Shown in pieces: positions 1 through 25,960 of a stretch of 64,000 nucleotides of DNA. The DNA lies in assembly GCA_902558395.1 (NCBI GenBank), contig CACEDS010000002.1:9662-73661 (forward strand), given 5' to 3'. The position numbers were made by a program, and so were the translations under genes. The stretch comes from an uncultured SAR86 cluster bacterium. Lineage in GTDB: Bacteria > Pseudomonadota > Gammaproteobacteria > Magnimaribacterales > D2472. The notes under the pieces are model-generated. The model was given only the letters and a program-made list of their open reading frames with translations, was not told the DNA's origin and did not search any database. Within the stretch, counting starts at the first letter, position 1. Each line of letters starts with the position of its first letter.

Positions 1-780
1 ATCAGATGCATAACCTAAAATAACTGCAATAATGTATGGAATCCTTATTATTGGTTTTACTGATCTGTTCATTTTAGTTCTTGAAAAATGAACTAATTCA
101 TTCATTGTCATATCAGGCTTATCAATGTAGTTATATAAATGGTATCCCTCTTTAAAATCAAGAGAATGCTTTATAAAACCTGCAACATTAGAGACATAAG
201 CCATTGACTTTTTATTTTTTCCATCTCCGATCATTGGAAAATATTTTTTATTGATTTGATTTAAAAAATTAAAAACATTACCTCTATTATTTTCTCCAAA
301 AACAACCGTAGGTCTTATTATTGTTAAGCTACCATCATTCGCTTTCTGCCATTTTTTATAAATATCTTCTGCCTCAAGTTTAGTTCTTCCATAATCATTA
401 AATGGTTTAGTAATACCATGTTCATCGGTGTTTCTTGGTGCAAAGCCATAGACAGCCACTGAACTAATAAAGATAATTTTTTTTATGCCTTTTGATAAAG
501 CTACGTTACATACATTTCTTGAGCCTTCTACATTTACTTGATCATATAGTGACTTTGGTCTTACATCATCTCTATGCACTGCAGCTAGATTAATGATAAC
601 GTCACCTGATATTTTTGTTTGAAGCTGTTCTAAATTAGTTACATCACAATATTCAGTTTTAGATTTATATTTGGGATTAATATTGACATCAAGTATTTTG
701 AATTCAATAGCCTCATCTTCTAATAGTTTGCATAATGCATTACCTATAAATCCAGAGCCACCAATAATATCTATATTCAT
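1..780 (-). CDS. gnu: NAD-dependent epimerase, Gnu-like (GlcNAc-PP-undecaprenol 4-epimerase family); 3' end outside window
   Basis: Not in ORF track. Manual translation from ATG at 780 is open to position 1: MNIDIIGGSGFIG (Rossmann), LAAVHRDDVRPKSLY, FISSVAVYG, YGRTK (YxxxK), IIRPTVVFGENNRGNV, KSMAYVSN, YNYIDKPD. Confidence 0.8.
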   Translation of the reverse strand, partial: MNIDIIGGSGFIGNALCKLLEDEAIEFKILDVNINPKYKSKTEYCDVTNLEQLQTKISGDVIINLAAVHRDDVRPKSLYDQVNVEGSRNVCNVALSKGIKKIIFISSVAVYGFAPRNTDEHGITKPFNDYGRTKLEAEDIYKKWQKANDGSLTIIRPTVVFGENNRGNVFNFLNQINKKYFPMIGDGKNKKSMAYVSNVAGFIKHSLDFKEGYHLYNYIDKPDMTMNELVHFSRTKMNRSVKPIIRIPYIIAVILGYASD

Positions 781-785
781 ATATA

Positions 786-1334
786 TTAAATACTAAGAAG
801 TTTAATTATCTTTGCAGGGGCACCTGCAATTATAACGTTGTTTGGAAACGATTTTGTTACCACTGAGCCAGCTGCTACAACTGTATTGTCGCCAATATTT
901 ACACCTTTTAAAATTACAACCCTACTTCCTATCCAAACATTGTTACCAATGATTATTGGACTTGTTAAGTTTTCTTGTTTATTGAAACTTTTTTCCGGGC
1001 TCGTGCCATGATCACTGTCAACAAAATGTGCATTAGGTGCGATCATTGTATTTTTACCAATTTTAATTCTTTCTGAAGAAATAATAATAGAGTTGTTTCC
1101 TATTGTAACGTTTTCACCTATTTCTATATGTGCATTTGGGTTTGCACATCCAACTATAGAGTTCCTTTTAAAATATATATTATTTTTGAGTAAAATATTT
1201 TTCTTATATCTATATAAATAAGCTCCAAACTCAAAGTAAATATTTTTTTTAAAGTTTTTATAAATTATCAATCTTGTTAAGTTCCATAATCTATCAAGGT
1301 GAGTAGGTTTATTGTGCTTTCTAAATTGGCTCAT
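786..1334 (-). CDS. Hexapeptide-repeat (left-handed beta-helix) O-acyltransferase
   Basis: [60 protein letters not shown]. Confidence 0.88.
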
Positions 1335-1335
1335 T

Positions 1336-2136
1336 TTAAAAAAATTTATTTTTTGAATAATTGGAATGTGTAACTCTAGCTATATATTTTTTCATAAATC
1401 CTTTTCCATGAGGAAAATTTATTCTTTTTGGGATAAGTTCAAAATTAATTAATTGAGAATGTTGCAATGCTTTAATAGATTCATAAGCCCCAATAGATCT
1501 ATAATTTGGATCGTTTAATGTTCTTTTTGTCCATACATCGTCAATGAACATAGCGCCACCTTTAGAAAGACATGCTAGAGAATTCATGATATCCATTGCA
1601 ACTACAGGATATCCATGTGCGCCATCAACCCATATTAAATCAAATTTTTTATTAGAATTAAATTGAAGTTCCAATGAGTTCTTTTGTATAAAATTAACAT
1701 TTTGACATGAACTTAGAAGAGCATCTCTGTCTTTAATAAAAATAGATCTTTTTTCCTTGCTGTTCCTGTCATATGTTTCGGAAAAAATAGGGTCATCATC
1801 GGGTAAATCATATGTTGTAATGTCTGAATTAGGGAATAAAACTGACAATAATTTTGTGCATGAGGCTGTATATGTTCCTATTTCTAATATTGTTTTTGTA
1901 TTATTTAAAAGGCTTATGGCTGCAAATAATCGATGATGTTCGCTTATTAAAACTTTTGTATTTGGGTGGTCAGTATATAGGGTATCTAGAACTTTTTTTG
2001 CTGCTTCTCTATCATATCCAAGCTTTTTATAGAGACTATATTGTTTTTCTTCAATTTTTTTTAAATCATAGGAGCTTTTAAGAAGAGCAAGTTTTAAATT
2101 GTTGTGAAGTCTAGTATAAATCTTTTTTAGCATCAT
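1336..2136 (-). CDS. Class I SAM-dependent methyltransferase (Methyltransf_24-like)
   Basis: ILEIGTYTA motif I; [12 protein letters not shown]; GGAMFIDD. Confidence 0.82.
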
Positions 2137-2169
2137 TATATTTAAAAACCTATTTTTATGATTTATGCC

Positions 2170-2847
2170 TCATACCAACGCACGCAATTTTGAGATATGT
2201 GAGACGGCTGTTGAGTGATTGAAACGATATGGAGAATCAAGCAAAGCAAGTGCCTTATTGTAATCTTCTTTAGTATCTATAGCTAAAGCTGAAAGCTTTT
2301 CTTCATTGCTTAACCAATGAATATTATATTCATTTAAATTCTGATAAAAAAATTTTGTTATATGCTCTTTTTGAAATAGGCTCATTTTTTTATAAGCATC
2401 ATTTATTGAGGCATATGAAACAAGTTCTACGCTAAATCCTGGAATATGACTTTTATTTACATTAGAAATTAAATCTATTTCTGGCATTTTTTTAATAAGT
2501 CTACTTGCATAATTAATTTTTTCATAATCAAAAAAGACATTATCTCCATTAACTCTATTTATCCATTTAGCGCCTTGAATATTTGCTGCTCCTATAAATC
2601 TTCCAGCAACATCTTCAACACTACCTCTATAAGTTCGGATATTATGACTTGCAGCAATTTTTTCTAATTCATCATCTTCATCTAGATCGGTCGTTGCTAA
2701 AATTATATTTGGCCAATTATCTAAATTTCTTGCACGATTTAAAATAAAATCTAAAACCGTCTTGTCTCCAAATCTTTTAATTGCTTTATGCGGCAATCTG
2801 CTACTTCCCAAACGGGCCAAAATAACTGAACAAATAGTATGTTGCAT
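2170..2847 (-). CDS. Cytidylyltransferase, SpsF/PseF/KdsB-like
   Basis: ILARLGSSRLPHKAI, IILATT..EDDEL, YRGSVEDVAGRF, RVNGDN, LAIDTKEDY. Confidence 0.85.
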   Translation of the reverse strand: MQHTICSVILARLGSSRLPHKAIKRFGDKTVLDFILNRARNLDNWPNIILATTDLDEDDELEKIAASHNIRTYRGSVEDVAGRFIGAANIQGAKWINRVNGDNVFFDYEKINYASRLIKKMPEIDLISNVNKSHIPGFSVELVSYASINDAYKKMSLFQKEHITKFFYQNLNEYNIHWLSNEEKLSALAIDTKEDYNKALALLDSPYRFNHSTAVSHISKLRALV

Positions 2848-2848
2848 T

Positions 2849-3655
2849 TTAATTAATAGTATCCAAATATAAATTGATCTTATTCTGAAATTCTTCTCTT
2901 TTTTTATTATTAATTTTCATGCTGAAATGATGTTTAGATTTTGTATAAAGTTTGTGTAATAAAAATCTAATAATATAAAAAGGATTTACACCAAATTCTC
3001 TAAGTGATTGTATATTGCCTTTAAAGATATTTATAAAATTTTTAGAACTTTGTCCTCCGGATGTCATGCACACTACTGGTGAATTAATAATAAGATTTTT
3101 TCTATTCTTTTTTAGAAGATTTTTAAAAAATCCATAATCAGCAGAAATGTATGATTCTAGATTAAATCTAGTATCGTCAATAAGATTACGACTCATGAAT
3201 GTTGAAAAATGAGGCAATTGAAAATGAGCAGGTATCGAATACAAATTCGATGGCATGGACCAATATCGTTCAATTTCATTGTTTTGATTTACATAAAATA
3301 GCTCAAAAACTATTAGCTCATAGTTATTCTCCATAAAGCTTTTATATGCAATGCTAAATACATCATTTGATATCAAGAAATCGTCTGATCCAATCATAAA
3401 TATTAGATCGCCATTAGCTAAATCTATGCCTTTATTGAGAGCATCAAAAATCCCATTATCTTTTTCATGAATAACTAAATTGCATTTATCACGAAGGTAT
3501 TCAAGAGTATCTTCAAAAAAAATTTTATCTGAACCTCCATCCATAACAATAATTTCATATTTATCTCTGTCAAAATTTTGTGATAGGATGCTTTTGACGG
3601 TTCGTACTATTCTTTTATCATTATACGAGGGAATAATTATGGAAATTTGTATCAT
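2849..3655 (-). CDS. Glycosyltransferase family 2 (WcaE-like)
   Basis: ISIIIPSYN, IIVMDGGS, HEKDNGIFDALNKGI, FMIGSDD, YISADY, MTSGGQS. Confidence 0.88.
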   Translation of the reverse strand: MIQISIIIPSYNDKRIVRTVKSILSQNFDRDKYEIIVMDGGSDKIFFEDTLEYLRDKCNLVIHEKDNGIFDALNKGIDLANGDLIFMIGSDDFLISNDVFSIAYKSFMENNYELIVFELFYVNQNNEIERYWSMPSNLYSIPAHFQLPHFSTFMSRNLIDDTRFNLESYISADYGFFKNLLKKNRKNLIINSPVVCMTSGGQSSKNFINIFKGNIQSLREFGVNPFYIIRFLLHKLYTKSKHHFSMKINNKKREEFQNKINLYLDTIN

Positions 3656-4596
3656 AATTTGCTCATTTTATAATGATTATACTGCTCTTCTAGGCTGCAA
3701 AGATGCTCATAAGATCTTTTTTTTATTTTTTTATAATATCCCTTTAAATCTTTAGTATAACTGTCCTCATCGAATACTCTTGGTACATTCATTAATTCAA
3801 ACATTTGTTTATAGTTACTTTTAATCTTGTAATTAAAATGGTTAGCAACTTTCATGACTTCGGGTAAAGGGTCTTGAACTAGGTCTTCAAAGAAAATATT
3901 TATTGCATTAGATTGGTCATTGCTAAAAAAATCTTCATAGTATTTACTCACTACTAAATAGCATCTCTCTTCTGGGCAACTATCAAACCATTTCTCCTTG
4001 TAGCTATAAGCAAAGCCAGGGATATTCATACCTTTATAGTTAAAATAATATTTGCCCATCCTGTCTAATTCGTCATACCTTGAACCTCTTCCAGTCTCGC
4101 ACCATTCAAGGAAAACCCTTTTTGGATTCCTGATTGTGTTGATATTTATAAAATTGAAACCTTTTTTATTTAGCTCTTTTTGAATATTAAGTTTTAGATC
4201 TGTTGTAAAACAAGGTATAAATTTTGAAGATGACCATGAATAAGTAAAATCTTGCCAAGATTGTGAGTTATCATTTCGTTTATTTCTTATATCTAATTCT
4301 TTTTGTGAAGAGAGTTTTAAAAATGAACTTTGGTCTAATTCTTTTAAATTGATACCCCTCCCTATATAGCTGTACCATGAATAAATTTTAAAATAGTTTG
4401 CTAAAAGTGTGGCTGTTGCTTGTAAATTAATATCACCAGAGTCATGTGCATCCAATATCCAATCTGGGAAAGGCTCATTTGATGGCACATCAATATTTTC
4501 AACACTTGAGACAACATACCAGGTAATTGCTTTTCCAGATCTTGATATACCATTTAACAATATAATTGGACTATTTAAATTATTTATATTAGTCAT
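3652..4596 (-). CDS. Putative sulfotransferase (P-loop NTPase fold)
   Basis: N-terminal LNGISRSGK resembles the 5'-PSB loop; TIRNPKRV resembles the 3'-PB motif; FFEDLVQDP near the C-terminus. Confidence 0.6.
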   Translation of the reverse strand: MTNINNLNSPIILLNGISRSGKAITWYVVSSVENIDVPSNEPFPDWILDAHDSGDINLQATATLLANYFKIYSWYSYIGRGINLKELDQSSFLKLSSQKELDIRNKRNDNSQSWQDFTYSWSSSKFIPCFTTDLKLNIQKELNKKGFNFININTIRNPKRVFLEWCETGRGSRYDELDRMGKYYFNYKGMNIPGFAYSYKEKWFDSCPEERCYLVVSKYYEDFFSNDQSNAINIFFEDLVQDPLPEVMKVANHFNYKIKSNYKQMFELMNVPRVFDEDSYTKDLKGYYKKIKKRSYEHLCSLEEQYNHYKMSKL

Positions 4597-4603
4597 TTAA
4601 GAG

Positions 4604-5305
4604 TTAATATAATATGTAAGAAATCAGGGAACTAATCAAATAAATTATACCCCCAAGCGTACCAACTAAATATATGAAGTTTCTAATAAAACTACTCTGT
4701 TTATGATTATTTTCTTTATGATTTTCTTGAGTACTATTGAAATCTTCTTTTGCTATAACTGCAACTGCAATAGCCAAATTATCTGAATGGGAGATGCTAA
4801 TCGAAAAATTTTTAAACGACGGAATATCATTTTCATATTTTATTTCAATACTATTCCAGTTTCTAATACTTATATTTTTAGCTTTATAAATGGCTTCTTT
4901 TGCTGCAAATATTCCAGTTAAGGTTTCTTTTGGATTATCTTTTGATTCAGCATAGCTAATCTCCCTAACCGTAAAAATATTAAGCAAATCATCATCGTTC
5001 TTTGAAAAATTAGTTTTGTCTTTTAGAAATTCATTAACACTTTGTATATCAATCCCAATTAATAAGTTAGATTTTGATTTATCTGATGTAAAAAAATATG
5101 GATTAATATTTGAATTTATTCCTGCTTGCCAAAATGAATTATTCGATAAATCAGGTACTTCAATATTATTTTCATCACACCATGCAGCAATTCTAGATTT
5201 TTGAGCTGAGGTCAAGGAAATTGAATTAACTTCATAAATATCAACATCTGTGAGTTTTAAAATAAAACTTCTTAATAAATCTATATTTTCTATTCTAGTA
5301 TCCAT
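4604..5305 (-). CDS. acpS: Holo-ACP synthase (AcpS-type PPTase) with N-terminal ACP-like domain and C-terminal hydrophobic helix
   Basis: LIGIDIQ, FTVREISY, GIFAAKEAIYKA, SISISHS; start placed at ATG 5305, overlapping the upstream stop (track start 5344). Confidence 0.8.
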   Translation of the reverse strand: MDTRIENIDLLRSFILKLTDVDIYEVNSISLTSAQKSRIAAWCDENNIEVPDLSNNSFWQAGINSNINPYFFTSDKSKSNLLIGIDIQSVNEFLKDKTNFSKNDDDLLNIFTVREISYAESKDNPKETLTGIFAAKEAIYKAKNISIRNWNSIEIKYENDIPSFKNFSISISHSDNLAIAVAVIAKEDFNSTQENHKENNHKQSSFIRNFIYLVGTLGGIIYLISSLISYILY

Positions 5306-6569
5306 TAAAACAGTTCTCACAAATATTGGACTCTCCACCATCAAATTTAGTTATCTTTATAAAACCTATGCTGCCATGAGCCTTTAATTCACTTGCACTT
5401 ATTTCGCATTTATCACACTTCATATATTTAATCCTGTCCTCATTAAAAAAATGAGATTCAACATTTGTTTTTAATTTTTGTAAAAACTTTGAAACGTACA
5501 GCCCTGAAGAAATTTTATGATCAAATCCAACATATATATCATATGTAAATGAATTTCTTTTAATTATGCCAATTATAGAAGATTGGTTGCTACTTACTAA
5601 AGGTAACATGTAGGTTGCACCCACATTTGAAAGATCAGATATAGTAAAAGTTGTTGAAGTTAATAACTTTTCGTTAATTGTTTGATTAGATTCGAATAGA
5701 TCAAGCAATTCAATTATTTTATTTTGAACTTCTTTTAGTGTTAATTTGTCCGAATTCTCTATGGATAGTACTTTTAAATTTGAATCATTATCAAAACTAA
5801 AACCAGCATTGACTTGGTCATAAGCACCATATTGTTTTTCGTTAAGATAAAATGAGTTTAACTCTGGAAAATCAACTAATAGCTTTGATGCCTCAAATGT
5901 CACTATGTCAGAAATAGACTCTTTAAACATATATGGCACTGAGTAAGATCTAGTTGGAAGACATTTTATCTCTATACCAATTACTGATTGAGTTGATATA
6001 TTTCCATTAGATGTAAGATTATTTATTTCAGCCCTTTTTCTTAATGTGAAATTTTTTTCATCATAGCTAACTGTTGGTAAGTCTGAAATATTTTTGTTAT
6101 GTGGAGGTTTATATAACTTTTTTGAAGATATCGAAATTGCATCTTCGTGATTTTGGCTATCTTTAGAAATAAATTTTTTTACATCCTCTAAAGTTACCAT
6201 TTTTTTCTCTGAATAAAAGTTTGTTATTTGTTTTTTATCTAACAAAGCTTTTGCATCTTTATTAATAATGTATTTATCTAAATTAGAAAGATTATCATTT
6301 GTATCTTCTGAATTATTTATTTCGGATTCTTTAGCTCCTATTTTGTCTAATACTTCAAATAGGCAACTTCCAATAGATATTTCATCCCCTTCTTGAACAT
6401 GTAGATTAATATATCCACTTTTAGGTGTTTCAATAGCGATTGCTGTTTTTGATGTTTCTAGGTCCAGAATTAACTTGTTTTTTTCAGCTTTTTCATTGTT
6501 AGTTACATAAATTTTTTCAACTATAACAAATTCATCATTAACATTATCTTTTGGCACATAAACTTTCAT
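5295..6569 (-). CDS. 2-oxoacid dehydrogenase E2-like protein (lipoyl domain + acyltransferase domain + C-terminal 4-Cys tail)
   Basis: Lipoyl motif LETSK41TAIAIETPKSG; TFTISDLS and GFDHKISSG match the E2 catalytic domain; tail CDKC...CENC. Confidence 0.82.
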   Translation of the reverse strand: MKVYVPKDNVNDEFVIVEKIYVTNNEKAEKNKLILDLETSKTAIAIETPKSGYINLHVQEGDEISIGSCLFEVLDKIGAKESEINNSEDTNDNLSNLDKYIINKDAKALLDKKQITNFYSEKKMVTLEDVKKFISKDSQNHEDAISISSKKLYKPPHNKNISDLPTVSYDEKNFTLRKRAEINNLTSNGNISTQSVIGIEIKCLPTRSYSVPYMFKESISDIVTFEASKLLVDFPELNSFYLNEKQYGAYDQVNAGFSFDNDSNLKVLSIENSDKLTLKEVQNKIIELLDLFESNQTINEKLLTSTTFTISDLSNVGATYMLPLVSSNQSSIIGIIKRNSFTYDIYVGFDHKISSGLYVSKFLQKLKTNVESHFFNEDRIKYMKCDKCEISASELKAHGSIGFIKITKFDGGESNICENCFNGY

Positions 6570-6574
6570 TTTTT

Positions 6575-8572
6575 CTAGATTGATTCAGATTTGAGCTTAT
6601 TTAAATTTTCTATTATATACTCAATTGTTGGCAGTGAATTATCCTCTAATGATCTTATTGATGGAATTGGATAAGGCATTGCTCCAATTTTTATAAAATT
6701 TATGTCGTTATAATAAGCTATGATTTCGGAAATAAGCTCAGACCCTAAGCCAAAGCTAGTTGATCCATCTTCGATAATCGCTAGATTTCTGGTTTTATTA
6801 AAAAGTCTCAAAATTGGATTGAGGTTGTATGGGTTTATACAAGTTAAACATGCCACTTGAATTATAAAACCTGTTTCTTGAAAAATTTCAACAAATCCGT
6901 CAACAACTTCTCTAGCAGTTCCCCCATAGGTTATGACAGTTAAGTTTGGATCCATTTCTTTGGGTTTAAGTATTATAGGTCCATAGCTTCCTCCAATTTG
7001 TTGAATTGATAAAAAGTCATTTTCTTGAAACAGTTTTTTTCCATAATCGACTTTGTTTTCTAAAATAATTGCTGGGCAATCTAATGTTCTTAAATCCTTC
7101 ATCATTTTTGATGGGTCAATTAATGAAGTAACAGCAAACATAGCGACATTATCTATACCGGCAAAAAACTTTTCCAGTGATTGAGAATGAGTTGGACCAT
7201 AACCTCTTTTACCACCCATTGGGGTTCTAATTCTAACTGGAGCAGAGCATTGAAAAGCATACATATGGTAAAACTTTGAAGCATTACTTAATATCTGATC
7301 GAATGAATAAGACAAAAAATCTCCAAACATAATTTCTACAAAACTTTTATTACCCATCATCGACAGTCCTATTCCTAGTCCAGTTATTGCAGCTTCACTA
7401 ATAGGTGTCCCGATAACTTTTTTAGGGTAAAGTTCAGACAATCCTTTTGAAACTTTAAAAGCACCACCATATGGATCTAATATATCTTCACCAATAAAAT
7501 ATGAACCATTTTCAATTTCATTTTTGTAAGCATCGTTCAGGACATTTATTAATCTTAGGTCTGGATTATGCACATCTTTAGATTTTGCAGAAATTTTTCG
7601 TGGGAGCTGGTCATGGAAATATTCATCTTTTTGAAGATAAGATGGCTGCGAATTATTGATATACCTAGCTACCTTGGTCTTAATATTTTCAAAATTTTTA
7701 TTAAGCAAATTAGTTTTCTTTAAAATATTCAATGAATCATATTCTTTAAAAAATTCTATTTCTTTTTTATCTCTATCGTCATCAGATTTAGAATGAGCAT
7801 TAAGTCTATATGTTTTAATATCTATAAAGCATGGTTTCTGCTTATGTTTTGAGTACTCAATTGCTTCTTGGCATGTTTTGAAGAGATGGTCTAAATCCCA
7901 TGTGTTTGTTGAATAAAACTCTAGATCGAATGCTTTTGCTCTAAGCTCAATTGATCCAGATAATGCGCGAAATTGTTCAGTTGATTGTGAGTAAAGATTA
8001 TTTTCCAGTACAAAAATATGGGGTAAGGAAAATATGCTTGCAAGATTCATAGATTCATAAACAAGACCTTCTCCTAGCGTGCCTTCACCCAGAAAGGATA
8101 CACACACATTATTGCTATAGTTATCTTTTAAGTGCTTAGCAATTCCACATCCAACGGGTACAAGTGCTGCTTGAGGACCATTGGAGAGAAAACCTTCAGC
8201 AAATAAATGTTGGCTGCTTCCAATACCTTTACACACCCCTGACTTAAATCCTCTTAATTCATCTATAAGAGCCTCCCACTTCATAGTTTTTGAGATAAAA
8301 TGCCCATGACATCTATGATTGGATGTTACCCAATCATTTTTATCTAAAGCTCTTGAAATAGCCACCCCAGTAAATTCCTGTCCAACACATGTGTGCACAG
8401 TTCCATTCATGTCACCCTGATTGAAAAGATTTAAAAAAGAATTTTCAACCTCTCTTATTAAAATTGCAGTCTCAATATCAGATAAATAGTTCTTTATAAT
8501 TGAATTATTATCATAGCTTTGAGAAGCCAATGACTTAAAATGCTCAAGATGTTGAGTGTTTTTCATGAACAT
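6575..8572 (-). CDS. ThDP-dependent 2-oxoacid dehydrogenase E1, alpha/beta fusion
   Basis: Alpha: GTVHTCVGQE, SNHRCHGH, GEGTLGEG...ENN, TYRLNAHS. Beta: IGEDI.DPYGGAFKVSKGL, TPISEAAI, EIMFGDF, YGPTHSQS. Confidence 0.9.
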   Translation of the reverse strand: MFMKNTQHLEHFKSLASQSYDNNSIIKNYLSDIETAILIREVENSFLNLFNQGDMNGTVHTCVGQEFTGVAISRALDKNDWVTSNHRCHGHFISKTMKWEALIDELRGFKSGVCKGIGSSQHLFAEGFLSNGPQAALVPVGCGIAKHLKDNYSNNVCVSFLGEGTLGEGLVYESMNLASIFSLPHIFVLENNLYSQSTEQFRALSGSIELRAKAFDLEFYSTNTWDLDHLFKTCQEAIEYSKHKQKPCFIDIKTYRLNAHSKSDDDRDKKEIEFFKEYDSLNILKKTNLLNKNFENIKTKVARYINNSQPSYLQKDEYFHDQLPRKISAKSKDVHNPDLRLINVLNDAYKNEIENGSYFIGEDILDPYGGAFKVSKGLSELYPKKVIGTPISEAAITGLGIGLSMMGNKSFVEIMFGDFLSYSFDQILSNASKFYHMYAFQCSAPVRIRTPMGGKRGYGPTHSQSLEKFFAGIDNVAMFAVTSLIDPSKMMKDLRTLDCPAIILENKVDYGKKLFQENDFLSIQQIGGSYGPIILKPKEMDPNLTVITYGGTAREVVDGFVEIFQETGFIIQVACLTCINPYNLNPILRLFNKTRNLAIIEDGSTSFGLGSELISEIIAYYNDINFIKIGAMPYPIPSIRSLEDNSLPTIEYIIENLNKLKSESI

Positions 8573-8579: not shown

Positions 8580-9665
8580 TTAATTATCTGAGGTTTGTAA
8601 TGATTTAATTTCACTTATTATCTCTTCAACAGATTCTGGAAAATGAATAGTTTTTGTTGCAGCCCTCTTTAATGTATTTTTAATAGACCTGTTTACTATT
8701 TTTTCAGCACTCTTATTAATTTTTATTGCTTTTGCGAAAGAAATAATTTTAAAGCTGTCATTATACGCCATTCCTGATGAAGTAAAACCTATGCCTGATA
8801 CTAAATTAGGATGATTATAAAAAAATTGTATCGGAATGTGATGAGGTAAAACTTTAAAGCCATATCTAATATACTTTTTTTCTAATGATTTTTTATAATT
8901 TCTAGGCTTAAATTTAAGATAAACCTCAAGATTGATTGAGTTGGCTTTACGAACTAAATTTCTTATGAAGTTCCAATATTCATCTCTTGATACAATGTCA
9001 TTACCAAATAAATCCTTCTCAATAAATATAATTCCAGCATCCCTTATTTCATAGATGTTTTGATAATTTTCAATAATTGCATTATCAATCTCTATTTTTC
9101 CTAAGGTTTGGGTTTTGAAATTATTATTTCTATAAAACTTATCGGAGATACCAATAAGTGGAGATTTTCTATTTATAATTGGATTTGTGTATTTAAGAGA
9201 TAAATTTTTTCCAATTAATAATCTGTGGAAAAAATAATATATAAAATCTTGAAATGAAGATGGTTTTTTATCTTTAATGATAAATTGTTGTTCTTCATAG
9301 CTAACCAAATGTATTTTGTTTAGCGACTTAATTTTTTTTAATTGAATTAGGCCTATATCCCCCCAATCTTTAAAAGTAACAATTAAATTTTTGCATGAAA
9401 AATTTTTTACAAGCAATCTTAAAAAAAATAAATGAAAAGGATAATAAAGCTTCTTAACACTCGAATATAAAAGATTATAGTTGCCGAATCTTAAAACTTT
9501 TATATTAACTTTTTTATGAAACAATTCTTTTAAAAAATTTTCAAGCGACTTGTTACCAATTACAATTATTAGGGACATCGCATCCTCAGCATATATCCTA
9601 TTAATAATAGAATTAACTGCTGGATAAGACTGCACAAGATATATATTTTCGTATTTAATTTTCAT
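8580..9665 (-). CDS. Hypothetical protein, possible ulosonate (sialyl/Kdo-type) glycosyltransferase
   Basis: Soluble, Lys-rich, directly after wzx; C-terminal YLKFKPR and GIGFTSSG loosely resemble nucleotide-binding loops of bacterial sialyltransferase-like GT-B proteins. Confidence 0.4.
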   Translation of the reverse strand: MKIKYENIYLVQSYPAVNSIINRIYAEDAMSLIIVIGNKSLENFLKELFHKKVNIKVLRFGNYNLLYSSVKKLYYPFHLFFLRLLVKNFSCKNLIVTFKDWGDIGLIQLKKIKSLNKIHLVSYEEQQFIIKDKKPSSFQDFIYYFFHRLLIGKNLSLKYTNPIINRKSPLIGISDKFYRNNNFKTQTLGKIEIDNAIIENYQNIYEIRDAGIIFIEKDLFGNDIVSRDEYWNFIRNLVRKANSINLEVYLKFKPRNYKKSLEKKYIRYGFKVLPHHIPIQFFYNHPNLVSGIGFTSSGMAYNDSFKIISFAKAIKINKSAEKIVNRSIKNTLKRAATKTIHFPESVEEIISEIKSLQTSDN

Positions 9666-10839
9666 AGACTTTATATCTGTAAAATCTAATGTAGGTAGCT
9701 ATATATAAAAGGGAAGCACAAATAACAAAAAATAAAATTAATAAAATTAAAGAGGCTATATCAACAGAGTAAAACAGGCCTACTGGCGTAAATATTAATA
9801 TTAGAAAAATATTTAATATTAATATTGTTTTTTCTTTTTTGTGTCTCATAAATACGCCCATTAAGATTAATTGAGGTAACTGAAATAATAAAATTAAAGG
9901 GGTCATAAAAATTATGTCTGATGCCCCTACTAAATCTTTACCAAAAATATAATTTAGAATGGGTCCACCAAGATAATATAATATCAAAGATGAAGCTATA
10001 ATTGACGTCATTAATATGATAAATGAGAAGCTGTAATTATTTCTTAATTCAGCAAATTTTATATTTATGTCGTATAAATCTCTTGTCAATGAAAGGGAGA
10101 TGCCTGAGTATATCATTGTAAAAATTGTAAGAAATTGCAGAGCTATATTAAGGTAAGCTGCGTCTGTATAAGACAAAGTATATGCAGATATAATTATTGA
10201 GCCTCTTCTTATGGCAATTGCAATTAAACCATTGCCTGATGCATAAACAGAATTTATAAAATCTTGAAATGATGGTTTTTCTATATTTATAGAAAATGAT
10301 GCTAGTCTTTTTGCCAAGTAAATATTTAATAGCAAAGTAAAAAATGAAAGAAGGAAGTATGTTACGGCAAGAAATGTAATTGATAAATTTGTTTCTATAA
10401 ATGTTAAATACAGCAGAATGCATAATATTAAAAGCAACGGTTTTAAACATTCCAGTAAATTAAAGACAAAATACTGTTTATGTTGATTTAGTCTTACTCT
10501 AGCAAATGATGATATTTGATCTGACACTACAGCTAATAGAATAAATATTGCAAGACCGCTTTGAACTATTATTAAACCTAAAAAAATTACAGGTAAACAT
10601 ATAAGCTTTAAAGTAAATAAATTATCAAATCTTTTATCGTCAGCTAATGCTGATCTCAAAGCAATTTTAACAACTCCCGGTATTGATAAAATAGCAGCTA
10701 ATTCAAAAGTAGAAATTGCAGATATATACCAACCATAATCAGATAAATTGATATTTCTAACTATTAAAATCATACTAAAAAATTGAGCGATTCCTTTAAT
10801 GAACCTCCACCCAACATTCTGAAGAATAGTTGTAAGCAT
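9655..10839 (-). CDS. wzx: O-unit flippase
   Basis: 394 aa, roughly 12 hydrophobic segments; RFIKGIAQFFSMILIVRNINLSDYGWY opening typical of Wzx. Confidence 0.8.
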   Translation of the reverse strand: MLTTILQNVGWRFIKGIAQFFSMILIVRNINLSDYGWYISAISTFELAAILSIPGVVKIALRSALADDKRFDNLFTLKLICLPVIFLGLIIVQSGLAIFILLAVVSDQISSFARVRLNQHKQYFVFNLLECLKPLLLILCILLYLTFIETNLSITFLAVTYFLLSFFTLLLNIYLAKRLASFSINIEKPSFQDFINSVYASGNGLIAIAIRRGSIIISAYTLSYTDAAYLNIALQFLTIFTMIYSGISLSLTRDLYDINIKFAELRNNYSFSFIILMTSIIASSLILYYLGGPILNYIFGKDLVGASDIIFMTPLILLFQLPQLILMGVFMRHKKEKTILILNIFLILIFTPVGLFYSVDIASLILLILFFVICASLLYIATYIRFYRYKVYEN

Positions 10840-10844
10840 TTTAT

Positions 10845-12131
10845 TTATATTGAATTGATTTCCATCTTAAGAAAATTATTAGAAACTTGTCCAATTGGTT
10901 CAGGAAAACTGTCTTTGATATGAACAAAATGATTTGTATCTAATAGTACAAATCCAGGCAACCTAAAAAATAAAAATTTACTTGTAAATACAGTATTTAA
11001 ATTAGAAAAGTTTACGGATTTTAGTTGTCCCTGTTCCTCATTAAAAACCGTGCCTTTGATTAATTTACAAGCAATAACTGTATTAAAAGAATGAACATAT
11101 TTGCTATACAAAGCAATACTCATAAAGTCACTAGTCCATATTTTTTTGTTAGGATTAAGCAGAAATACATCATCATGCAAAGTTAGAACACTCCTAACAT
11201 TAGGGCATTTTTGTAAACTGCTTATTAATGTTTCTGATGACTCTTCTCTTGGTAAAATTTTTAACTTTTTAAATCTATTAAGTTCAAGATTTTGTAAAAT
11301 TTTACTACTTGTTGATATGTAAACAGTCTTTATGGGTTTACATTTTTCTATATATTCTAATTGCATCTCAATACTCTGTAGGTGATTAGCACTCTCATCA
11401 ATATAATCATTGGTTAAATTATGTTCGCCATATCCAATAATTACACACGAGTTAGATTTATAGTTTTTCTCATGAAAAAAACACTCATAGGCCCTTCTCC
11501 TTCCTAAGAAGAGTTTGTCTTCGTGATTTGAAAGATTACCTTCGTGTCTCCTGTAATGGAATATAAATTCTTCTATTGTAGGACTTTTCCATTTTTCTGA
11601 AATTTTAAGCCAAGTATATAGGCCGTCTTGTGAAAAAATTTTATTTTCTTTAAATCTGATTTTTTTAATAGCATCGGTTCTAAATAATGTGCAGGCACCG
11701 TGAAATGCAGACTTAGCATATGATTCCTCTAGGATCATCTTATTTAAAATTTTATTCTTGCGGTCAATCTCTATCCAACTTCCCGAAACCGAGCCATAAC
11801 TTTCATCTTGATTTATTTTCGTCTTAAGGAGATTAATTGCTTTTTGAGTTAGCACATCATCAGCATCTACCCTCATAATATACTTATACTTACTACAAAA
11901 TTTTATATACACCCAGTCAATGATTTCTGTGAGAATTAATTTTTTATTATAAAAATGAATTTTTTTTTCTTTAGAGTAATTTTTTAAGTATTCATATGAA
12001 CCATCTGTTGACCCTGAGTCAATAAGGATAACATCTGTTTCATTGTCTAGTTGACTAAAAATACTGTTCAAACAATCTTTTAAAAATTTTCTATGATTGT
12101 GAGCAACTACGTAGATTAATGTATCTTTCAT
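10845..12131 (-). CDS. GT2 glycosyltransferase fused to a degenerate NeuA-like C-terminal domain
   Basis: N-terminal ILIDSGSTDGS and MRVDADD (DxD); C-terminal VYISTSS...ILPREE resembles the NeuA VSTD...RP scaffold. Confidence 0.75.
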   Translation of the reverse strand: MKDTLIYVVAHNHRKFLKDCLNSIFSQLDNETDVILIDSGSTDGSYEYLKNYSKEKKIHFYNKKLILTEIIDWVYIKFCSKYKYIMRVDADDVLTQKAINLLKTKINQDESYGSVSGSWIEIDRKNKILNKMILEESYAKSAFHGACTLFRTDAIKKIRFKENKIFSQDGLYTWLKISEKWKSPTIEEFIFHYRRHEGNLSNHEDKLFLGRRRAYECFFHEKNYKSNSCVIIGYGEHNLTNDYIDESANHLQSIEMQLEYIEKCKPIKTVYISTSSKILQNLELNRFKKLKILPREESSETLISSLQKCPNVRSVLTLHDDVFLLNPNKKIWTSDFMSIALYSKYVHSFNTVIACKLIKGTVFNEEQGQLKSVNFSNLNTVFTSKFLFFRLPGFVLLDTNHFVHIKDSFPEPIGQVSNNFLKMEINSI

Positions 12132-12155
12132 GATAATTTTAAAGGTTGTAAATAC

Positions 12156-13385
12156 CTAAGAGTGATAACTTTTTTTACCTCTTTCATTAACATATCTAAT
12201 TGAAATAGTTTGGATAATTATACATAAAGTCCATGCAGTTAAATTAAAAAATCCAGATTGTAGGCATATATAAGTAAGACTTAGGATTAAAATAACACAA
12301 AAGCAATTTCTACTGTTTTTATCTTGAATTAAAAAAAGCTTATTAAAAATATTTAAAAAATAATAATAAATTAATAAAATTATAATTGGGCTAAATAATC
12401 CATATTCTGCAAGAACTTTAGTTATCCCAGTTCCTCCAAATAAATTATCAACATCAAACATATATGGTGAATAACTAAGCATACCCATTCCAATTGGAAC
12501 TGTTAAAAAATTATCCACAAGATGATTCATTGATAGTGCCCATGGATATAACCTTACAAACAAAGATGATCCTTCCAAGGTGAAGTCTGTAACAGAACGT
12601 AATGATAATAAATTCAAAAATGAGAAATAGTCTAAGAAAAAACCAACAATAGGTGTTATTAATATAATTGAAAAAATATATATTTTTAATAATCTTAGAT
12701 TATTTAAATATAAGATTACCAGCATGGCGATAATCGAGATTGCAAATGGATAAAAAGCATTTGATTTAGATGCAAAATAAATAAAAATAAGGGCTATGCT
12801 TAGTTTAATTAAAGTAAGTTTTTTATAAAAAGAATATATAAAAAACCCGACTAATACAGTGTAAGTAAAATTCACTAGTTCGAAATGGAACCCTCCAAAC
12901 CTTGATCCGCCGTCATAAATTACGAACTCAGGTATGGGATTAAAAGGATATAAGAGCAGACTTATAAATAATGATGCAAATAAAATAATAGTAAATCTGC
13001 TCAAAAGTTTTAATGATTGTTCAATACTGATTCTTTCTGCCAAAACGATGATTAAATAAATAAAAATTAGTTTAGGTAAGCTATAGGAGAAAATAACCAT
13101 TATTCCATCAGTTGCATTAATTGTGCCGGTCAAAATAGATGTAATATTTAAAACTATCCCAAAAGCAATTAACAACAAAAGAGCTTTGTTAAAAAAAATT
13201 CTTGGTATATATAATTTTTTCTCTTGCCATAGCCATAAAAAAAATATGGCACTAACTAGTAATGATAAATAAATGCTTCCCGTATCTTCCCCTAAATTAA
13301 ATAATTGAGGGAAGTTTCCAAAAGGAAGCATTAATAAAAAAAACAATAGTAGATTTTCTAACTTAAATTTCTTTATTTGTTCCAT
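12156..13385 (-). CDS. wzy: O-antigen polymerase
   Basis: 409 aa, about 11 hydrophobic segments, RFGGFHFE loop and late periplasmic loop EGSSLFVRL...GMG; located among GTs with wzx and wzz. Confidence 0.75.
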   Translation of the reverse strand: MEQIKKFKLENLLLFFLLMLPFGNFPQLFNLGEDTGSIYLSLLVSAIFFLWLWQEKKLYIPRIFFNKALLLLIAFGIVLNITSILTGTINATDGIMVIFSYSLPKLIFIYLIIVLAERISIEQSLKLLSRFTIILFASLFISLLLYPFNPIPEFVIYDGGSRFGGFHFELVNFTYTVLVGFFIYSFYKKLTLIKLSIALIFIYFASKSNAFYPFAISIIAMLVILYLNNLRLLKIYIFSIILITPIVGFFLDYFSFLNLLSLRSVTDFTLEGSSLFVRLYPWALSMNHLVDNFLTVPIGMGMLSYSPYMFDVDNLFGGTGITKVLAEYGLFSPIIILLIYYYFLNIFNKLFLIQDKNSRNCFCVILILSLTYICLQSGFFNLTAWTLCIIIQTISIRYVNERGKKSYHS

Positions 13386-19896: not shown

Positions 19897-19929
19897 TGTA
19901 GTGCCTATGATTTTCTTATTAAAACTTTT

Positions 19930-20913: not shown

Positions 20914-20982
20914 ATTCTTAATCCTATACTTATATCTGTAAAAAAATGATTATTATAAATACATATTCCCATGTTTACTAAT

Positions 20983-22239: not shown

Positions 22240-22243
22240 AATA

Positions 22244-23302: not shown

Positions 23303-23306
23303 TTGC

Positions 23307-24317: not shown

Positions 24318-24371
24318 TAGATTTGTATTTTATCATTATAATTTTGACAAGAATATACTTTATAACTAATT

Positions 24372-25957: not shown

Positions 25958-25960
25958 TAA

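What the first reader, a model, noticed from the sequence alone, without database searches (positions are those of the whole stretch)
4604..8572. PDH-like E1(ab)-E2-ACP/AcpS module embedded in an O-antigen locus: candidate carrier-dependent acyl or C2-unit supply line for a surface glycan
Seen: three translationally coupled genes in the middle of a wzx/wzy/wzz cluster encode a fused ThDP E1 alpha/beta, an E2-like protein with an intact lipoyl lysine, and an ACP-like domain fused to its own PPTase; there is no E3 gene in the window. Known: stand-alone PDH-like E1s build C2-branched sugars (AviB1/B2-type), and E1 + lipoyl/acyltransferase + ACP sets (QncN/QncL/QncM-type) move a glycolyl unit from a ketose onto an ACP in antibiotic pathways. 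Inference: this is not a housekeeping PDH. It may decarboxylate or cleave a keto donor, relay the acyl unit via lipoyl to a dedicated ACP, and use it to acylate or branch a sugar of the O-unit. I know of no characterisation of such a module in polysaccharide biosynthesis.
Basis: partly seen in the sequence, partly recalled or inferred. Interest (0 to 1): 0.9.

Follow-up and report, generated by a model that had tools for sequence, protein, structure and literature searches.

The report
PDH-like acyl-supply module in glycan locus
Three tightly packed genes inside a surface-polysaccharide locus of a low-GC marine bacterium encode a pyruvate-dehydrogenase-like enzyme pair plus a membrane-anchored phosphopantetheinyl transferase; the set is conserved in many bacteria, belongs to the same clade as the enzymes that make the glycolyl unit of certain antibiotics, and most likely makes a short acyl group for decorating the cell-surface sugar chain, a role nobody seems to have tested.

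Summary
The three genes exist as described. They are a fused ThDP E1 alpha/beta (6575-8572, -), an E2 with lipoyl Lys41, a subunit-binding domain, a catalytic domain and a C-terminal zinc ribbon (5295-6569, -), and an AcpS-type PPTase with a 60-aa N-terminal domain and a C-terminal membrane helix (4604-5305, -). The gaps are 5 nt and an 11-nt overlap. No E3 is in the window.

All three score far below NCBI's cut-offs for housekeeping PDH proteins. The set recurs in 16 independent loci, 11 of them in polysaccharide loci. The PPTase fusion has about 180 representatives at 50% identity.

- The E1 is 42% identical over its full length to RenH. RenH/RenI are the renieramycin counterparts of the quinocarcin enzymes that make a glycolyl unit.
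- In sister loci the same E1 pairs with a lipoyl-PSBD-PglD/NeuD sugar N-acyltransferase fusion, next to DegT aminotransferases and PglC-like transferases.

Both point to sugar acylation. The 'ACP-like' domain is not proven. It has an invariant Ser at the start of helix 2 and weak fold matches to ACPs, but no sequence match to carrier proteins. The acyl group (glycolyl is my first guess) and its acceptor are inferred. I found no published characterisation.

The parts
6575..8572 (-). Fused ThDP-dependent E1 alpha/beta (665 aa). ThDP motif G162-E-G-T-L-G-E-G ... E190-N-N, Y255-R-L-N-A-H-S (His260), P390-I-S-E, T461-H-S-Q-S.
   Evidence: Pfam E1_dh, Transket_pyr and Transketolase_C. Motifs and invariant columns. 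Closest solved structures are PDH E1 alpha and beta, E 1e-33 and 1e-30. 42% identical to RenH. Below all NCBIfam equivalog cut-offs.
5295..6569 (-). E2-like acyltransferase (424 aa): lipoyl domain (Lys41, codon 6447-6449), peripheral-subunit-binding domain (about aa 100-135), catalytic domain (D349-H350-K) and a C-terminal zinc ribbon (C385xxC ... C417xxC, nt 5310-5417).
   Evidence: Pfam Biotin_lipoyl and 2-oxoacid_dh. Alignment of 15 homologues. A profile of the linker region hits solved PSBDs 1w4i and 1w4j, E 4e-5. The catalytic domain matches solved E2 cores. The zinc ribbon occurs only in loci that also have the PPTase fusion.
4604..5305 (-). Three-part protein (233 aa): N-terminal two-helix domain with invariant Ser33 (putative minimal carrier; nt 5120-5305, Ser codon 5207-5209), AcpS-type PPTase domain (about aa 80-190; G84-I-D-I-Q, A134-A-K-E-A), a low-complexity linker and a C-terminal transmembrane helix (about aa 206-232).
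   Evidence: Pfam ACPS. AF2 models. Foldseek hits to AcpS and FAS PPT, E 6e-7, and weak ACP hits for the N-domain. Invariant L18, L31, S33, Q35, R38, W42. Hydrophobic segment at aa 206. 182 family representatives at E<=1e-30 with the same architecture.
786..1334 (-). WbbJ-like left-handed beta-helix O-acyltransferase (182 aa). It is the candidate user of the module's acyl product in this locus (inferred).
   Evidence: Pfam Hexapep. NCBIfam WbbJ, 108 bits, below cut-off. A hexapeptide acyltransferase lies within a few genes of the module in 8 of 16 loci.
8580..24212 (-). Upstream part of the polysaccharide locus in which the module sits. It runs from the 361-aa gene just upstream of the E1 to Wzz at 23307-24212. 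It holds GT2 enzymes, two multi-span membrane proteins (possible Wzx/Wzy), two UDP-sugar dehydrogenases, epimerases, a fused oxidoreductase and a heparinase II/III-like protein.
   Evidence: GC is 26-31% here against 30-35% in the housekeeping flank. The tRNA-Leu and tRNA-Cys genes at 24231-24445 border it.
1..4596 (-). Downstream part of the same locus: a weakly sulfotransferase-like protein (3652-4596), a GT2 (2849-3655), a CTP_transf_3 cytidylyltransferase (2170-2847), a methyltransferase (1336-2136), the hexapeptide acyltransferase and a truncated epimerase/dehydratase (1-780). The locus runs off the window start.

Best explanation
This is a dedicated acyl-unit generator for decorating a surface glycan. 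It is derived from the 2-oxoacid dehydrogenase complex and belongs to the same clade as the RenH/RenI (QncN/QncL-type) enzymes that make the glycolyl unit of tetrahydroisoquinoline antibiotics.

Proposed steps:
1. The fused E1 uses ThDP to take a C2 or short unit from a keto donor. The donor is a ketose phosphate or hydroxypyruvate, giving glycolyl (my first guess), or pyruvate, giving acetyl.
2. The E1 reductively acylates the lipoyl-Lys41 arm of E2, which is held on E1 by its PSBD.
3. The E2 catalytic domain passes the acyl group to a thiol. The most likely acceptor is a phosphopantetheine arm placed on Ser33 of the small N-terminal domain of the third protein by its own AcpS-type domain. 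That protein is tethered to the inner membrane by a C-terminal helix, and the E2 zinc ribbon may dock to it.
4. A locus-specific acyltransferase (here the WbbJ-like enzyme at 786-1334) moves the acyl group onto a sugar of the repeat unit.
5. The dihydrolipoyl arm is re-oxidised by the cell's housekeeping E3.

Shown: the domain content, conserved catalytic motifs, conservation of the gene set, homology to RenH/RenI, the prevailing glycan context, and the lipoyl-PglD fusions in sister loci. Inferred: the donor, the identity of the acyl group, carrier loading, the acceptor sugar and the use of E3.
For: - Domains and motifs are intact in all three proteins. These include E1 His260 and the THSQS His, which homologous E1s use for reductive acylation of lipoyl (established PDH/BCKDH knowledge), lipoyl Lys41, the E2 DH motif, and the PPTase GxD...KEA Mg/CoA residues.
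- Gene order E1-E2-PPTase fusion is conserved in 16 independent loci of Gamma-, Beta- and Alphaproteobacteria. Eleven lie in loci with Wzz, Wzx, glycosyltransferases or export genes.
- The E1 is 42% identical to RenH (E 1e-167), and the E2 aligns with RenI (E 7e-29). RenH falls inside the clade in an NJ tree. The role of RenH/RenI and QncN/L/M is stated in PMC13249901 and PMC6335953; the scl cluster also has its own PPTase and ACP.
- E1s at about 50% identity pair with lipoyl-PSBD-PglD_N-Hexapep fusions in at least 120 protein clusters. These sit next to a PglC-like transferase, a DegT aminotransferase, or inside a Bacillus polysaccharide locus. The two partner types are interleaved in the E1 tree.
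- Other variants place E1-E2 next to an MBOAT or next to GNAT and FemAB-like acyltransferases.
- The zinc ribbon of E2 and the PPTase fusion occur together or not at all.
- The N-domain has an invariant Ser at the helix-2 N-terminus, and its best fold matches are ACPs.
- LbH acyltransferases that use acyl-ACP are established (LpxA, LpxD). A PglD homologue taking its acyl group from an O-antigen-locus ACP has been predicted in F. psychrophilum (PMC6519341).
Against: - The N-domain has no detectable sequence relation to carrier proteins. It has two helices, not four. Its helix 2 is basic, whereas the ACP recognition helix is acidic. The fold matches are not significant (best E 0.9).
- No single acyltransferase is conserved next to the module, so the consumer is not identified.
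- About 5 of 16 loci (L005, L007, L008, L034; L013 is mixed) and one PglD-type pair (L032) lie among housekeeping genes.
- 42% identity to RenH does not fix the substrate, and RenH/RenI themselves are assigned by homology.
- No amino-sugar aminotransferase is visible in the part of this locus that the window shows.
- I know of no bacterial polysaccharide with a proven glycolyl group made this way.
- Whether an E3 exists elsewhere in the genome could not be checked.
Confidence: 0.55

Rival explanations
1. Generator of an unusual acyl-CoA. E1/E2 make a non-standard short acyl-CoA (glycolyl-, propionyl- or similar) by the ordinary E2 reaction with free CoA. Ordinary CoA-dependent LbH or GNAT acyltransferases of the locus then use it. 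The PPTase fusion would serve another carrier, or act as a membrane scaffold, and its N-domain would be a docking element rather than a carrier.
For: - The E2 catalytic domain is a normal CAT-fold E2 core with the DH motif.
- The variants L015 and L016 have E1+E2 with no PPTase fusion at all.
- The N-domain has no sequence similarity to ACPs.
- The neighbouring acyltransferases belong to families that usually use acyl-CoA.
- A 4HBT thioesterase lies next to the module in L008.
Against: - The PPTase fusion is kept in strict gene order in 16 loci and co-varies with the E2 zinc ribbon. That is hard to explain if it takes no part.
- An invariant Ser sits at a helix N-terminus beside a PPTase with an intact catalytic site.
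- The homologous Qnc and Scl systems deliver to an ACP, not to CoA.
Confidence: 0.2
2. The module targets an envelope molecule other than the O-antigen or capsule, such as LPS core, lipid A, peptidoglycan or a membrane lipid. Its frequent position in polysaccharide loci would then reflect co-transfer within variable islands.
For: - Stand-alone modules sit among housekeeping genes in L005, L007, L008 and L034, and so does the PglD-type pair in L032.
- The third protein is membrane-anchored.
- No acceptor-specific enzyme is conserved beside the module.
Against: - 11 of 16 full modules and 4 of 5 PglD-type pairs are in glycan loci or glycan-modification contexts.
- The fusion partner PglD/NeuD is a nucleotide-sugar N-acyltransferase family, and it lies next to DegT and PglC-like genes.
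Confidence: 0.12
3. AviB1/AviB2- or YerE-like formation of a two-carbon branch. The E1 would transfer a hydroxyethyl or acetyl unit directly onto a keto-sugar nucleotide to make a branched-chain sugar.
For: - The E1 is a ThDP enzyme of the PDH E1 type, as AviB1/B2 are (recalled from the literature, not tested here).
- Sugar dehydratases and epimerases that could supply keto-sugars are in the locus.
Against: - Branch formation is non-oxidative and needs no lipoyl arm. Here a lipoyl domain with an invariant Lys and a PSBD accompanies the E1 in every locus, as E2 or as a PglD fusion.
- The residues that E1s use for reductive acylation of lipoyl are invariant.
- The PglD fusion points to N-acylation.
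Confidence: 0.05
4. An ordinary catabolic 2-oxoacid or acetoin dehydrogenase that happens to lie in the island.
For: - Metagenome pipelines call homologues '2-oxoisovalerate dehydrogenase E1 component'.
- The domain content matches E1+E2.
Against: - Scores are far below every NCBIfam equivalog cut-off.
- There is no E3.
- The set is coupled to a PPTase fusion, carries a zinc ribbon, recurs in glycan loci, is homologous to RenH/RenI and has PglD fusion variants.
Confidence: 0.03

Closest known systems
QncN/QncL/QncM (quinocarcin), SclQ1-4+SclP (scleric acid) and RenH/RenI (renieramycin): E1/E2-type systems that put a glycolyl unit on a carrier for NRPS/PKS lines. EtuP1/EtuP2 of ET-743 belong here too, from memory.
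   Same: - Both have a ThDP E1, a lipoyl-bearing acyltransferase, a carrier and (in scl) a dedicated PPTase.
- The window E1 is 42% identical to the fused E1 RenH over its full length.
- The window E2 and RenI share the lipoyl-linker-catalytic layout.
- RenH lies inside the clade.
- These clusters have no E3 either.
   Different: - The context is a polysaccharide locus, not an NRPS/PKS cluster.
- The E2 has an extra C-terminal zinc ribbon.
- The presumed carrier is a 60-aa two-helix domain without a PP-binding signature. It is fused to the PPTase and to a membrane anchor, where Qnc and Scl have a free 76-80-aa ACP.
- Domain fusions differ: in Qnc the E1 beta part is fused to the E2.
- The substrate and product here are untested.
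Pyruvate and branched-chain 2-oxoacid dehydrogenase complexes (E1 alpha2beta2, E2, E3)
   Same: - The folds and catalytic motifs of E1 match, as do the lipoyl domain, PSBD and CAT-like core of E2.
   Different: - Alpha and beta are fused.
- The ThDP motif reads GEG, not GDG.
- Identity is about 30%, and scores are below the equivalog cut-offs.
- There is no E3 gene.
- The set is coupled to a PPTase fusion and lies in glycan loci.
ACP-dependent acyl decoration in O-antigen loci: F. psychrophilum WfpC-G (ACP WfpD plus PglD-like WfpG). V. cholerae O1 RfbK-O is a further example, from memory.
   Same: - A locus-encoded carrier supplies an unusual acyl group to a sugar acyltransferase (PMC6519341).
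   Different: - Those systems build the acyl chain with FAS-like or ligase enzymes on a canonical ACP.
- Here the acyl group would come from a ThDP/lipoyl oxidative step.
PglD/NeuD/VioB sugar N-acetyltransferases
   Same: - The sister loci carry a PglD_N + Hexapep domain of this family, next to DegT and PglC-like genes as in pgl pathways.
   Different: - The domain is fused behind a lipoyl domain and a PSBD and is always paired with the E1. This suggests an acyl-dihydrolipoyl donor instead of acetyl-CoA.
- The architecture is annotated only generically. My searches found no paper on a lipoyl-PglD/NeuD link.
AviB1/AviB2 (avilamycin) stand-alone PDH-like E1 for C2-branched sugars
   Same: - It is a PDH-type ThDP E1 acting in sugar tailoring (recalled, not tested).
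   Different: - That system has no lipoyl E2. Here a lipoyl partner is always present.

Membership tests
2-oxoacid dehydrogenase E1, heterotetramer type (here fused) | E1_dh, Transket_pyr and Transketolase_C domains | tested here: met
   Pfam E 1.2e-43, 1.1e-15 and 6.1e-8, all above gathering scores.
2-oxoacid dehydrogenase E1, heterotetramer type (here fused) | ThDP/Mg motif GDG...NN, the ThDP-activating Glu of the beta part, and the two His used for reductive acylation of lipoyl | tested here: met
   GEG(T)...ENN has Glu for Asp, invariant in the clade. PISE, YRLNAH260S and TH462SQS are invariant. The functional reading of these residues comes from PDH/BCKDH literature.
Housekeeping PDH/BCKDH/acetoin dehydrogenase complex | Scores at or above NCBIfam equivalog cut-offs | tested here: not met
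   E1 scores 193.5 against 393.85 and 138.7 against 321. E2 scores 57.6 against 722.
Housekeeping PDH/BCKDH/acetoin dehydrogenase complex | An E3 (lpd) gene in the operon | tested here: not met
   No Pyr_redox domain and no E3 motif in the 64 kb. No E3 was noted beside the module in the loci with gene tables.
E2 dihydrolipoamide acyltransferase | Lipoyl domain with the modified Lys | tested here: met
   Biotin_lipoyl 26 bits against a cut-off of 22.1. K41 is invariant in 15 sequences. Actual lipoylation is not testable here.
E2 dihydrolipoamide acyltransferase | Peripheral-subunit-binding domain | tested here: met
   A profile of the linker region hits solved PSBDs 1w4i (E 4.1e-5) and 1w4j (E 1.8e-3), and more weakly 2eq9 (E 0.25).
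E2 dihydrolipoamide acyltransferase | Catalytic core with the DHRxxDG His | tested here: met
   2-oxoacid_dh 60 bits. The motif reads DH[KR]..[SE]G, and the upstream T-I-S-D-L-S is present.
Qnc/Ren-type glycolyl-unit system | E1 and E2 homologous to QncN/L or RenH/I | tested here: met
   42% identity with E 1e-167 to RenH, and 25% with E 7e-29 to RenI. RenH lies inside the clade.
Qnc/Ren-type glycolyl-unit system | A dedicated ACP as acyl acceptor | tested here: inconclusive
   There is only the Ser33 two-helix domain. Fold hits to ACPs are weak, and there is no sequence match.
Qnc/Ren-type glycolyl-unit system | A ketose phosphate donor and a glycolyl thioester product | not testable with these tools
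   This needs an enzyme assay.
Qnc/Ren-type glycolyl-unit system | Delivery to an NRPS/PKS assembly line | tested here: not met
   No NRPS or PKS genes appear in the window or in the loci with gene tables. The neighbours are glycan genes.
Acyl carrier protein (PP-binding, PF00550) | Match to the family profile and the DSL-type motif | tested here: not met
   No hit at E<=10 in 18 N-domains. hhalign probability is 0.25%. The motif is L-[TS]-S-[AG]-Q-[KR].
Acyl carrier protein (PP-binding, PF00550) | Helical bundle with the modified Ser at the N-terminus of helix 2 | tested here: inconclusive
   The model has two helices with invariant Ser33 starting helix 2. The best Foldseek hit is AcpM at TM 0.62 and E 0.9.
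AcpS-type phosphopantetheinyl transferase | ACPS fold and Mg/CoA-binding residues | tested here: met
   Pfam ACPS 41 bits against 25. Foldseek E 6e-7 to 2wat and 4dxe. G83/D85 and E136/K140 (numbering; +1 from the ATG at 5305) are invariant.
AviB1/B2-type branched-sugar E1 | E1 acts without a lipoyl E2 | tested here: not met
   A lipoyl partner is present in every locus examined.
Wzx/Wzy-dependent O-antigen locus | Wzz, Wzx and Wzy | tested here: inconclusive
   Wzz is met. The two 8-9-segment membrane proteins have no HMM hit.

The most novel reading that the evidence does not exclude
This is a widespread, uncharacterised way of acylating bacterial surface sugars, in which a ThDP/lipoyl machine rather than acetyl-CoA supplies the acyl group. 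It occurs in two forms. In one, the acyl-dihydrolipoyl arm is used directly by a fused PglD/NeuD sugar N-acyltransferase. In the other, the acyl group passes to a new, minimal, membrane-tethered carrier domain that is phosphopantetheinylated in cis. The product would be glycolyl (or another short hydroxyacyl) groups on O-antigens and capsules of marine and freshwater bacteria.
Probability: 0.35. Interest if true: 0.85.

Novelty: new variant of a known kind. Interest (0 to 1): 0.75.

Why it matters
- **Open question.** Unusual N- and O-acyl groups on surface sugars shape serotype, phage receptors and immune recognition. The genes behind many of them are unknown; for example, the basis of the N-glyceroyl and possible N-glycolyl groups on nonulosonic acids was called a major challenge in PMC5378307.
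- **Testable candidate.** This module is a concrete candidate source for such groups. It is present in cultured strains: Polynucleobacter sp. UK-Gri1-W3 (full module), and Bacillus sp. NRRL B-14911 and Pseudomonas sp. CCI3.2 (PglD-type).
- **New biochemistry.** It would extend the Qnc/Ren glycolyl chemistry from antibiotics to cell envelopes. It would also add two items: a lipoyl arm feeding a sugar acyltransferase directly, and a two-helix carrier fused to its own PPTase.
- **Annotation.** It would correct a common mis-annotation. Pipelines call these proteins '2-oxoisovalerate dehydrogenase E1' or plain 'NeuD/PglB/VioB acetyltransferase'.

Tried and rejected
- **ACP by sequence.** Pfam and NCBIfam on the protein and on 18 isolated N-domains gave no PP-binding hit. 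A profile search against PDB sequences gave only noise.
- **N-domain as a second PSBD.** I considered this because the motifs look superficially alike. hhalign against the family's own PSBD region gave probability 0.28%, so I dropped it.
- **Legionella LPS locus.** I recalled that it might hold PDH-like genes. Two literature searches found nothing, and I make no claim.
- **Other literature searches.** Searches for E1, lipoyl or PDH terms in O-antigen or polysaccharide clusters found nothing relevant. 'Lipoyl' in PMC4875605 means fatty acylation, not lipoic acid.
- **A conserved consumer gene.** Clustering the neighbours of 18 loci showed only the module itself as universal. The next most common neighbour is a hexapeptide acyltransferase, found in 6 of those 18 loci, and in 8 of the 16 full-module loci once L029 and L030 are counted.
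- **Pyr_redox_2 hits among neighbours.** These looked like a possible E3. The one examined (L007) is an FMO-like flavoprotein, and a 449-aa candidate in L006 is an ABC ATPase. The strongest hit (E 2.3e-76) was not located.
- **Extending the locus to the left.** A look-up by the first complete gene failed because the exact protein is not on record. [quoted passage not shown]
- **Papers not held.** The Peng et al. 2012 and Tianero et al. 2019 papers are not in the library. The Qnc and Ren mechanism is cited second-hand.

Full report
**1. What is in the sequence**

Positions 786-24212 of the window form one minus-strand array of closely spaced genes with 26-31% GC. The array is bordered by tRNA-Leu and tRNA-Cys genes at 24231-24445. 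Beyond them lie housekeeping genes at 30-35% GC. By reading of their translations these include uvrC, pgi, pyrF, rpsA, cmk, aroA, serC, gyrA and dxs.

Within the array, three ORFs fill the stated interval:
- 6575-8572 is a 665-aa protein with E1_dh, Transket_pyr and Transketolase_C, so it is a fused E1 alpha/beta.
- 5295-6569 is a 424-aa protein with Biotin_lipoyl and 2-oxoacid_dh.
- 4604-5344 has an ACPS domain.

The E1 stop and the E2 ATG are 5 nt apart. The third gene most likely starts at the ATG at 5305, because its homologues begin MD[ST].. at that point. That ATG overlaps the last 11 nt of E2.

The rest of the array holds four GT2 enzymes, two UDP-sugar dehydrogenases, epimerases, a cytidylyltransferase, a methyltransferase, a WbbJ-like hexapeptide acyltransferase and a Wzz. 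Two membrane proteins with 8-9 hydrophobic segments could be Wzx and Wzy, but they hit no profile. There is no E3. No Pyr_redox domain was found in the locus, and no E3 signature motif occurs in any frame of the 64 kb.

**2. Anatomy of the three proteins**

*E1.* Fifteen homologues at 50-72% identity share 200-odd invariant positions. These include the ThDP motif, the ThDP-activating Glu (PISE) and the two histidines (YRLNAH260S and TH462SQS). In PDH and BCKDH E1s, those histidines serve the reductive acylation of the lipoyl arm (established knowledge of those families). The ThDP motif reads GEGTLGEG...ENN, with Glu where other E1s have the Asp of GDG. Its closest solved relatives are PDH E1 alpha and beta (E 1e-33 and 1e-30), ahead of BCKDH. 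All NCBIfam equivalog models score at about half their cut-offs or less.

*E2.* An alignment of 15 homologues shows four parts:
- a lipoyl domain with invariant Lys41;
- a linker region whose profile finds solved peripheral-subunit-binding domains (1w4i, E 4e-5);
- a CAT-like core with the catalytic DH motif;
- a C-terminal CxxC...CxxC zinc ribbon, which ordinary E2s lack.

*The third protein.* The AF2 model (pLDDT 81) matches fungal FAS PPT domains and bacterial AcpS (E 6e-7). The GxD and KEA...K residues are invariant. A low-complexity linker and one hydrophobic helix follow at the C-terminus in all homologues.

In front sits a 60-aa domain with invariant L18, L31, S33, Q35, R38 and W42 (numbered from the ATG at 5305). 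Modelled alone (pLDDT 90), it is helix 3-19, a 13-residue loop, and helix 33-45 beginning at Ser33. Its best PDB fold match is the mycobacterial ACP AcpM (TM 0.62, E 0.9). Six of the top 16 hits are ACPs, but none is significant. It has no profile similarity to ACPs or to PSBDs. I therefore treat it as a putative minimal carrier, not as an established ACP.

**3. Is the set a unit, and where does it occur?**

A scan of species-representative genomes with an E1 alignment, plus look-ups of metagenome homologues, gave 16 independent loci with the same three genes in the same order. They come from Gamma-, Beta- and Alphaproteobacteria. When the neighbours of 18 loci were clustered, only the module itself was universal.

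- Eleven of the 16 lie in loci with Wzz, flippases, glycosyltransferases, export proteins, NeuB or Wzm/Wzt: the window, L001, L002, L006, L018, L010, L012, L017, L029, L030 and L035.
- L005, L007, L008 and L034 sit among housekeeping genes, and L013 is mixed.
- A hexapeptide acyltransferase lies within a few genes in 8 of 16. GNAT or FemAB-like enzymes, or an MBOAT, occur in others.
- A profile of the PPTase fusion finds 182 representatives at E<=1e-30 in a 50%-identity library. Nearly all are 220-275 aa and match from the N-domain onward.
- The E2 zinc ribbon is present exactly where the PPTase fusion is present.

**4. Two findings that bear on function**

*(a) Homology to the renieramycin enzymes.* The best hit among plasmid records is RenH of the renieramycin gene cluster of Ca. 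Endohaliclona, at 42% identity over 97% of the E1 (E 1e-167). The next gene, RenI, aligns with the window E2 from the lipoyl domain to the end of the catalytic core; it has no zinc ribbon. In an NJ tree, RenH falls inside the clade of glycan-locus E1s, well apart from generic fused E1s.

RenH/RenI are described as the counterparts of the quinocarcin enzymes that turn a ketose into the two-carbon glycolate unit (PMC13249901). The QncN/L/M and SclQ1-4/SclP systems comprise an E1, a lipoyl/acyltransferase, an ACP and, in scl, a PPTase (PMC6335953).

*(b) Lipoyl-PglD fusions.* Some E1s of the same clade (about 50% identity, interleaved in the tree) are not followed by E2 plus PPTase. Instead a single protein follows: lipoyl domain (Lys conserved), PSBD, PglD_N and hexapeptide repeats. 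This is a NeuD/PglB/VioB-type sugar N-acyltransferase fused behind a lipoyl arm. At least 120 protein clusters have this architecture. They include Bacillus sp. NRRL B-14911 and Pseudomonas sp. CCI3.2, and all are annotated generically.

The pair sits in these contexts:
- next to a PglC-like Bac_transf gene;
- directly after a DegT aminotransferase and before a GT4 and a flippase;
- inside a Bacillus polysaccharide locus with DegT, Gfo/Idh/MocA and dehydratase genes;
- once alone, in Pseudomonas.

A third variant lacks both the ribbon and the PPTase. In a SAR86 genome it reads AMP-ligase, E1, E2, MBOAT; in an alphaproteobacterium it reads E1, E2, GNAT, FemAB-like. One E1 clade is thus combined with many kinds of acyltransferase. 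That is what one expects of an acyl-donor generator.

**5. Most likely mechanism**

1. The E1 forms a ThDP-bound C2 or short unit from a keto donor.
2. It reductively acylates lipoyl-Lys41 of E2, which is docked by its PSBD.
3. The E2 core moves the acyl group to a thiol.
4. A locus-specific acyltransferase puts it on a sugar.

For the thiol, I favour a phosphopantetheine arm on Ser33 of the third protein, installed by its own AcpS domain. The reasons are that the fusion is strictly conserved and co-varies with the E2 ribbon, that its Ser is invariant, and that the homologous antibiotic systems deliver to an ACP. LbH enzymes that use acyl-ACP are well known (LpxA, LpxD). A PglD homologue fed by an O-antigen-locus ACP has been predicted in F. 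psychrophilum (PMC6519341).

For the acyl group, I favour glycolyl because of the RenH relationship. Acetyl or another short acyl group is not excluded. Re-oxidation of the lipoyl arm by a housekeeping E3 is assumed. Everything after the domain and context evidence is inference. Overall confidence is 0.55, lower for glycolyl or for the carrier taken singly.

**6. Rivals**

- An unusual acyl-CoA generator whose PPTase fusion is accessory (0.2). This is favoured by the PPTase-free variants and by the lack of an ACP signature. The conserved fusion argues against it.
- A non-polysaccharide envelope target (0.12), suggested by the stand-alone loci.
- AviB-type C2 branching (0.05). This is disfavoured because a lipoyl partner is always present.
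- A stray catabolic dehydrogenase (0.03). This is disfavoured by the scores, the missing E3, the fusions and the context.

**7. Known or new**

Seven literature searches for E1, lipoyl or PDH genes in O-antigen, capsule or PglD/NeuD contexts found no characterisation. The library is incomplete, and two key papers were not held.

The chemistry is a variant of a known kind (Qnc/Ren/Scl). These points are new:
- the polysaccharide context;
- the E2 zinc ribbon;
- the carrier-like domain fused to its PPTase and to a membrane anchor;
- the lipoyl-PglD fusion in sister loci.

I rate it a new variant of a known kind, with interest 0.75.

**8. Limits**

- The organism is unidentified. It is a low-GC marine bacterium, and its gene order fits a gammaproteobacterium.
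- The locus runs off the window start.
- The rest of the genome could not be inspected for aceEF/lpd.
- The context tally rests on 16+7 loci, some annotated only in part.
- The NJ trees have no support values.

Noticed in passing
L009/L028:11967-13031, L011:4253-5350, L019:11946-12992, L031:10001-11125, L032:10001-11071: A lipoyl domain and PSBD are fused to a PglD/NeuD-type sugar N-acyltransferase, always directly after a fused E1 of the same clade. At least 120 protein clusters have this architecture, including Bacillus sp. NRRL B-14911 and Pseudomonas sp. CCI3.2. All are annotated only as 'NeuD/PglB/VioB family sugar acetyltransferase'.
   Followed up: partly
L015:8424-16082 (SAR86 MAG) and L016:7967-14662: These variants have no zinc ribbon and no PPTase. 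One reads AMP-binding ligase, E1, E2, MBOAT, unknown 393-aa protein, which resembles a Dlt/Alg-type acylation set. The other reads B12-radical SAM, E1, E2, GNAT, FemAB-family protein.
   Followed up: partly
L033:11983-15151 (plasmid MK748464.1, Ca. Endohaliclona renieramycinifaciens): RenH and RenI of the renieramycin cluster are the closest annotated relatives of the window E1 (42% identity) and E2 (25% identity).
   Followed up: yes
window 24231-24445: tRNA-Leu(taa) and tRNA-Cys(gca) sit exactly at the border between the low-GC polysaccharide island (26-31% GC) and the housekeeping region (30-35% GC). This is a typical island boundary.
   Followed up: no
window 24495-28526: A second small minus-strand set lies just past the tRNAs. 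By reading of the translations only, it holds a HAD-like protein, a nucleotidyltransferase-like protein, an iron-type alcohol or glycerol-phosphate dehydrogenase-like protein, a cytidylyltransferase-like protein (GGFDPIHSGH) with an extra C-terminal part, and a small multi-span CDP-alcohol phosphatidyltransferase-like protein. It may be a polyol-phosphate or headgroup pathway.
   Followed up: no
window 15390-18952: A 687-aa fusion of a zinc-ADH-like domain with a Gfo/Idh/MocA oxidoreductase overlaps the start of a heparinase II/III-like protein (508 aa). A 320-aa protein without any family hit follows.
   Followed up: no
window 3652-4596 and 8580-9665: The genes that directly flank the module have only faint matches: Sulfotransfer_3 at E 0.017, and alpha-2,8-polysialyltransferase at E 0.0077. 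With the CTP_transf_3 cytidylyltransferase at 2170-2847, they hint at a CMP-activated acidic sugar and at sulfation.
   Followed up: partly
L014:886-2847 (Mameliella sp. CS4): The E1 homologue is split into three ORFs of 94, 369 and 157 aa. It is probably a pseudogene or carries sequencing frameshifts.
   Followed up: no
L012:8494-9894, L004:8208-9758, L008:5395-5892: Enzymes beside the module might hint at the donor or product. They are a GlcD-like FAD 2-hydroxyacid oxidase directly upstream of the E1, an aldehyde dehydrogenase directly upstream, and a 4HBT thioesterase directly downstream.
   Followed up: no
window 6575-8572 and homologues: The ThDP motif reads GEG instead of GDG in the window and in 18 of the 21 clade loci tabulated. 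GDG is kept in L015, L016 and L031 (and in the two outgroup E1s of that table), and in RenH.
   Followed up: partly
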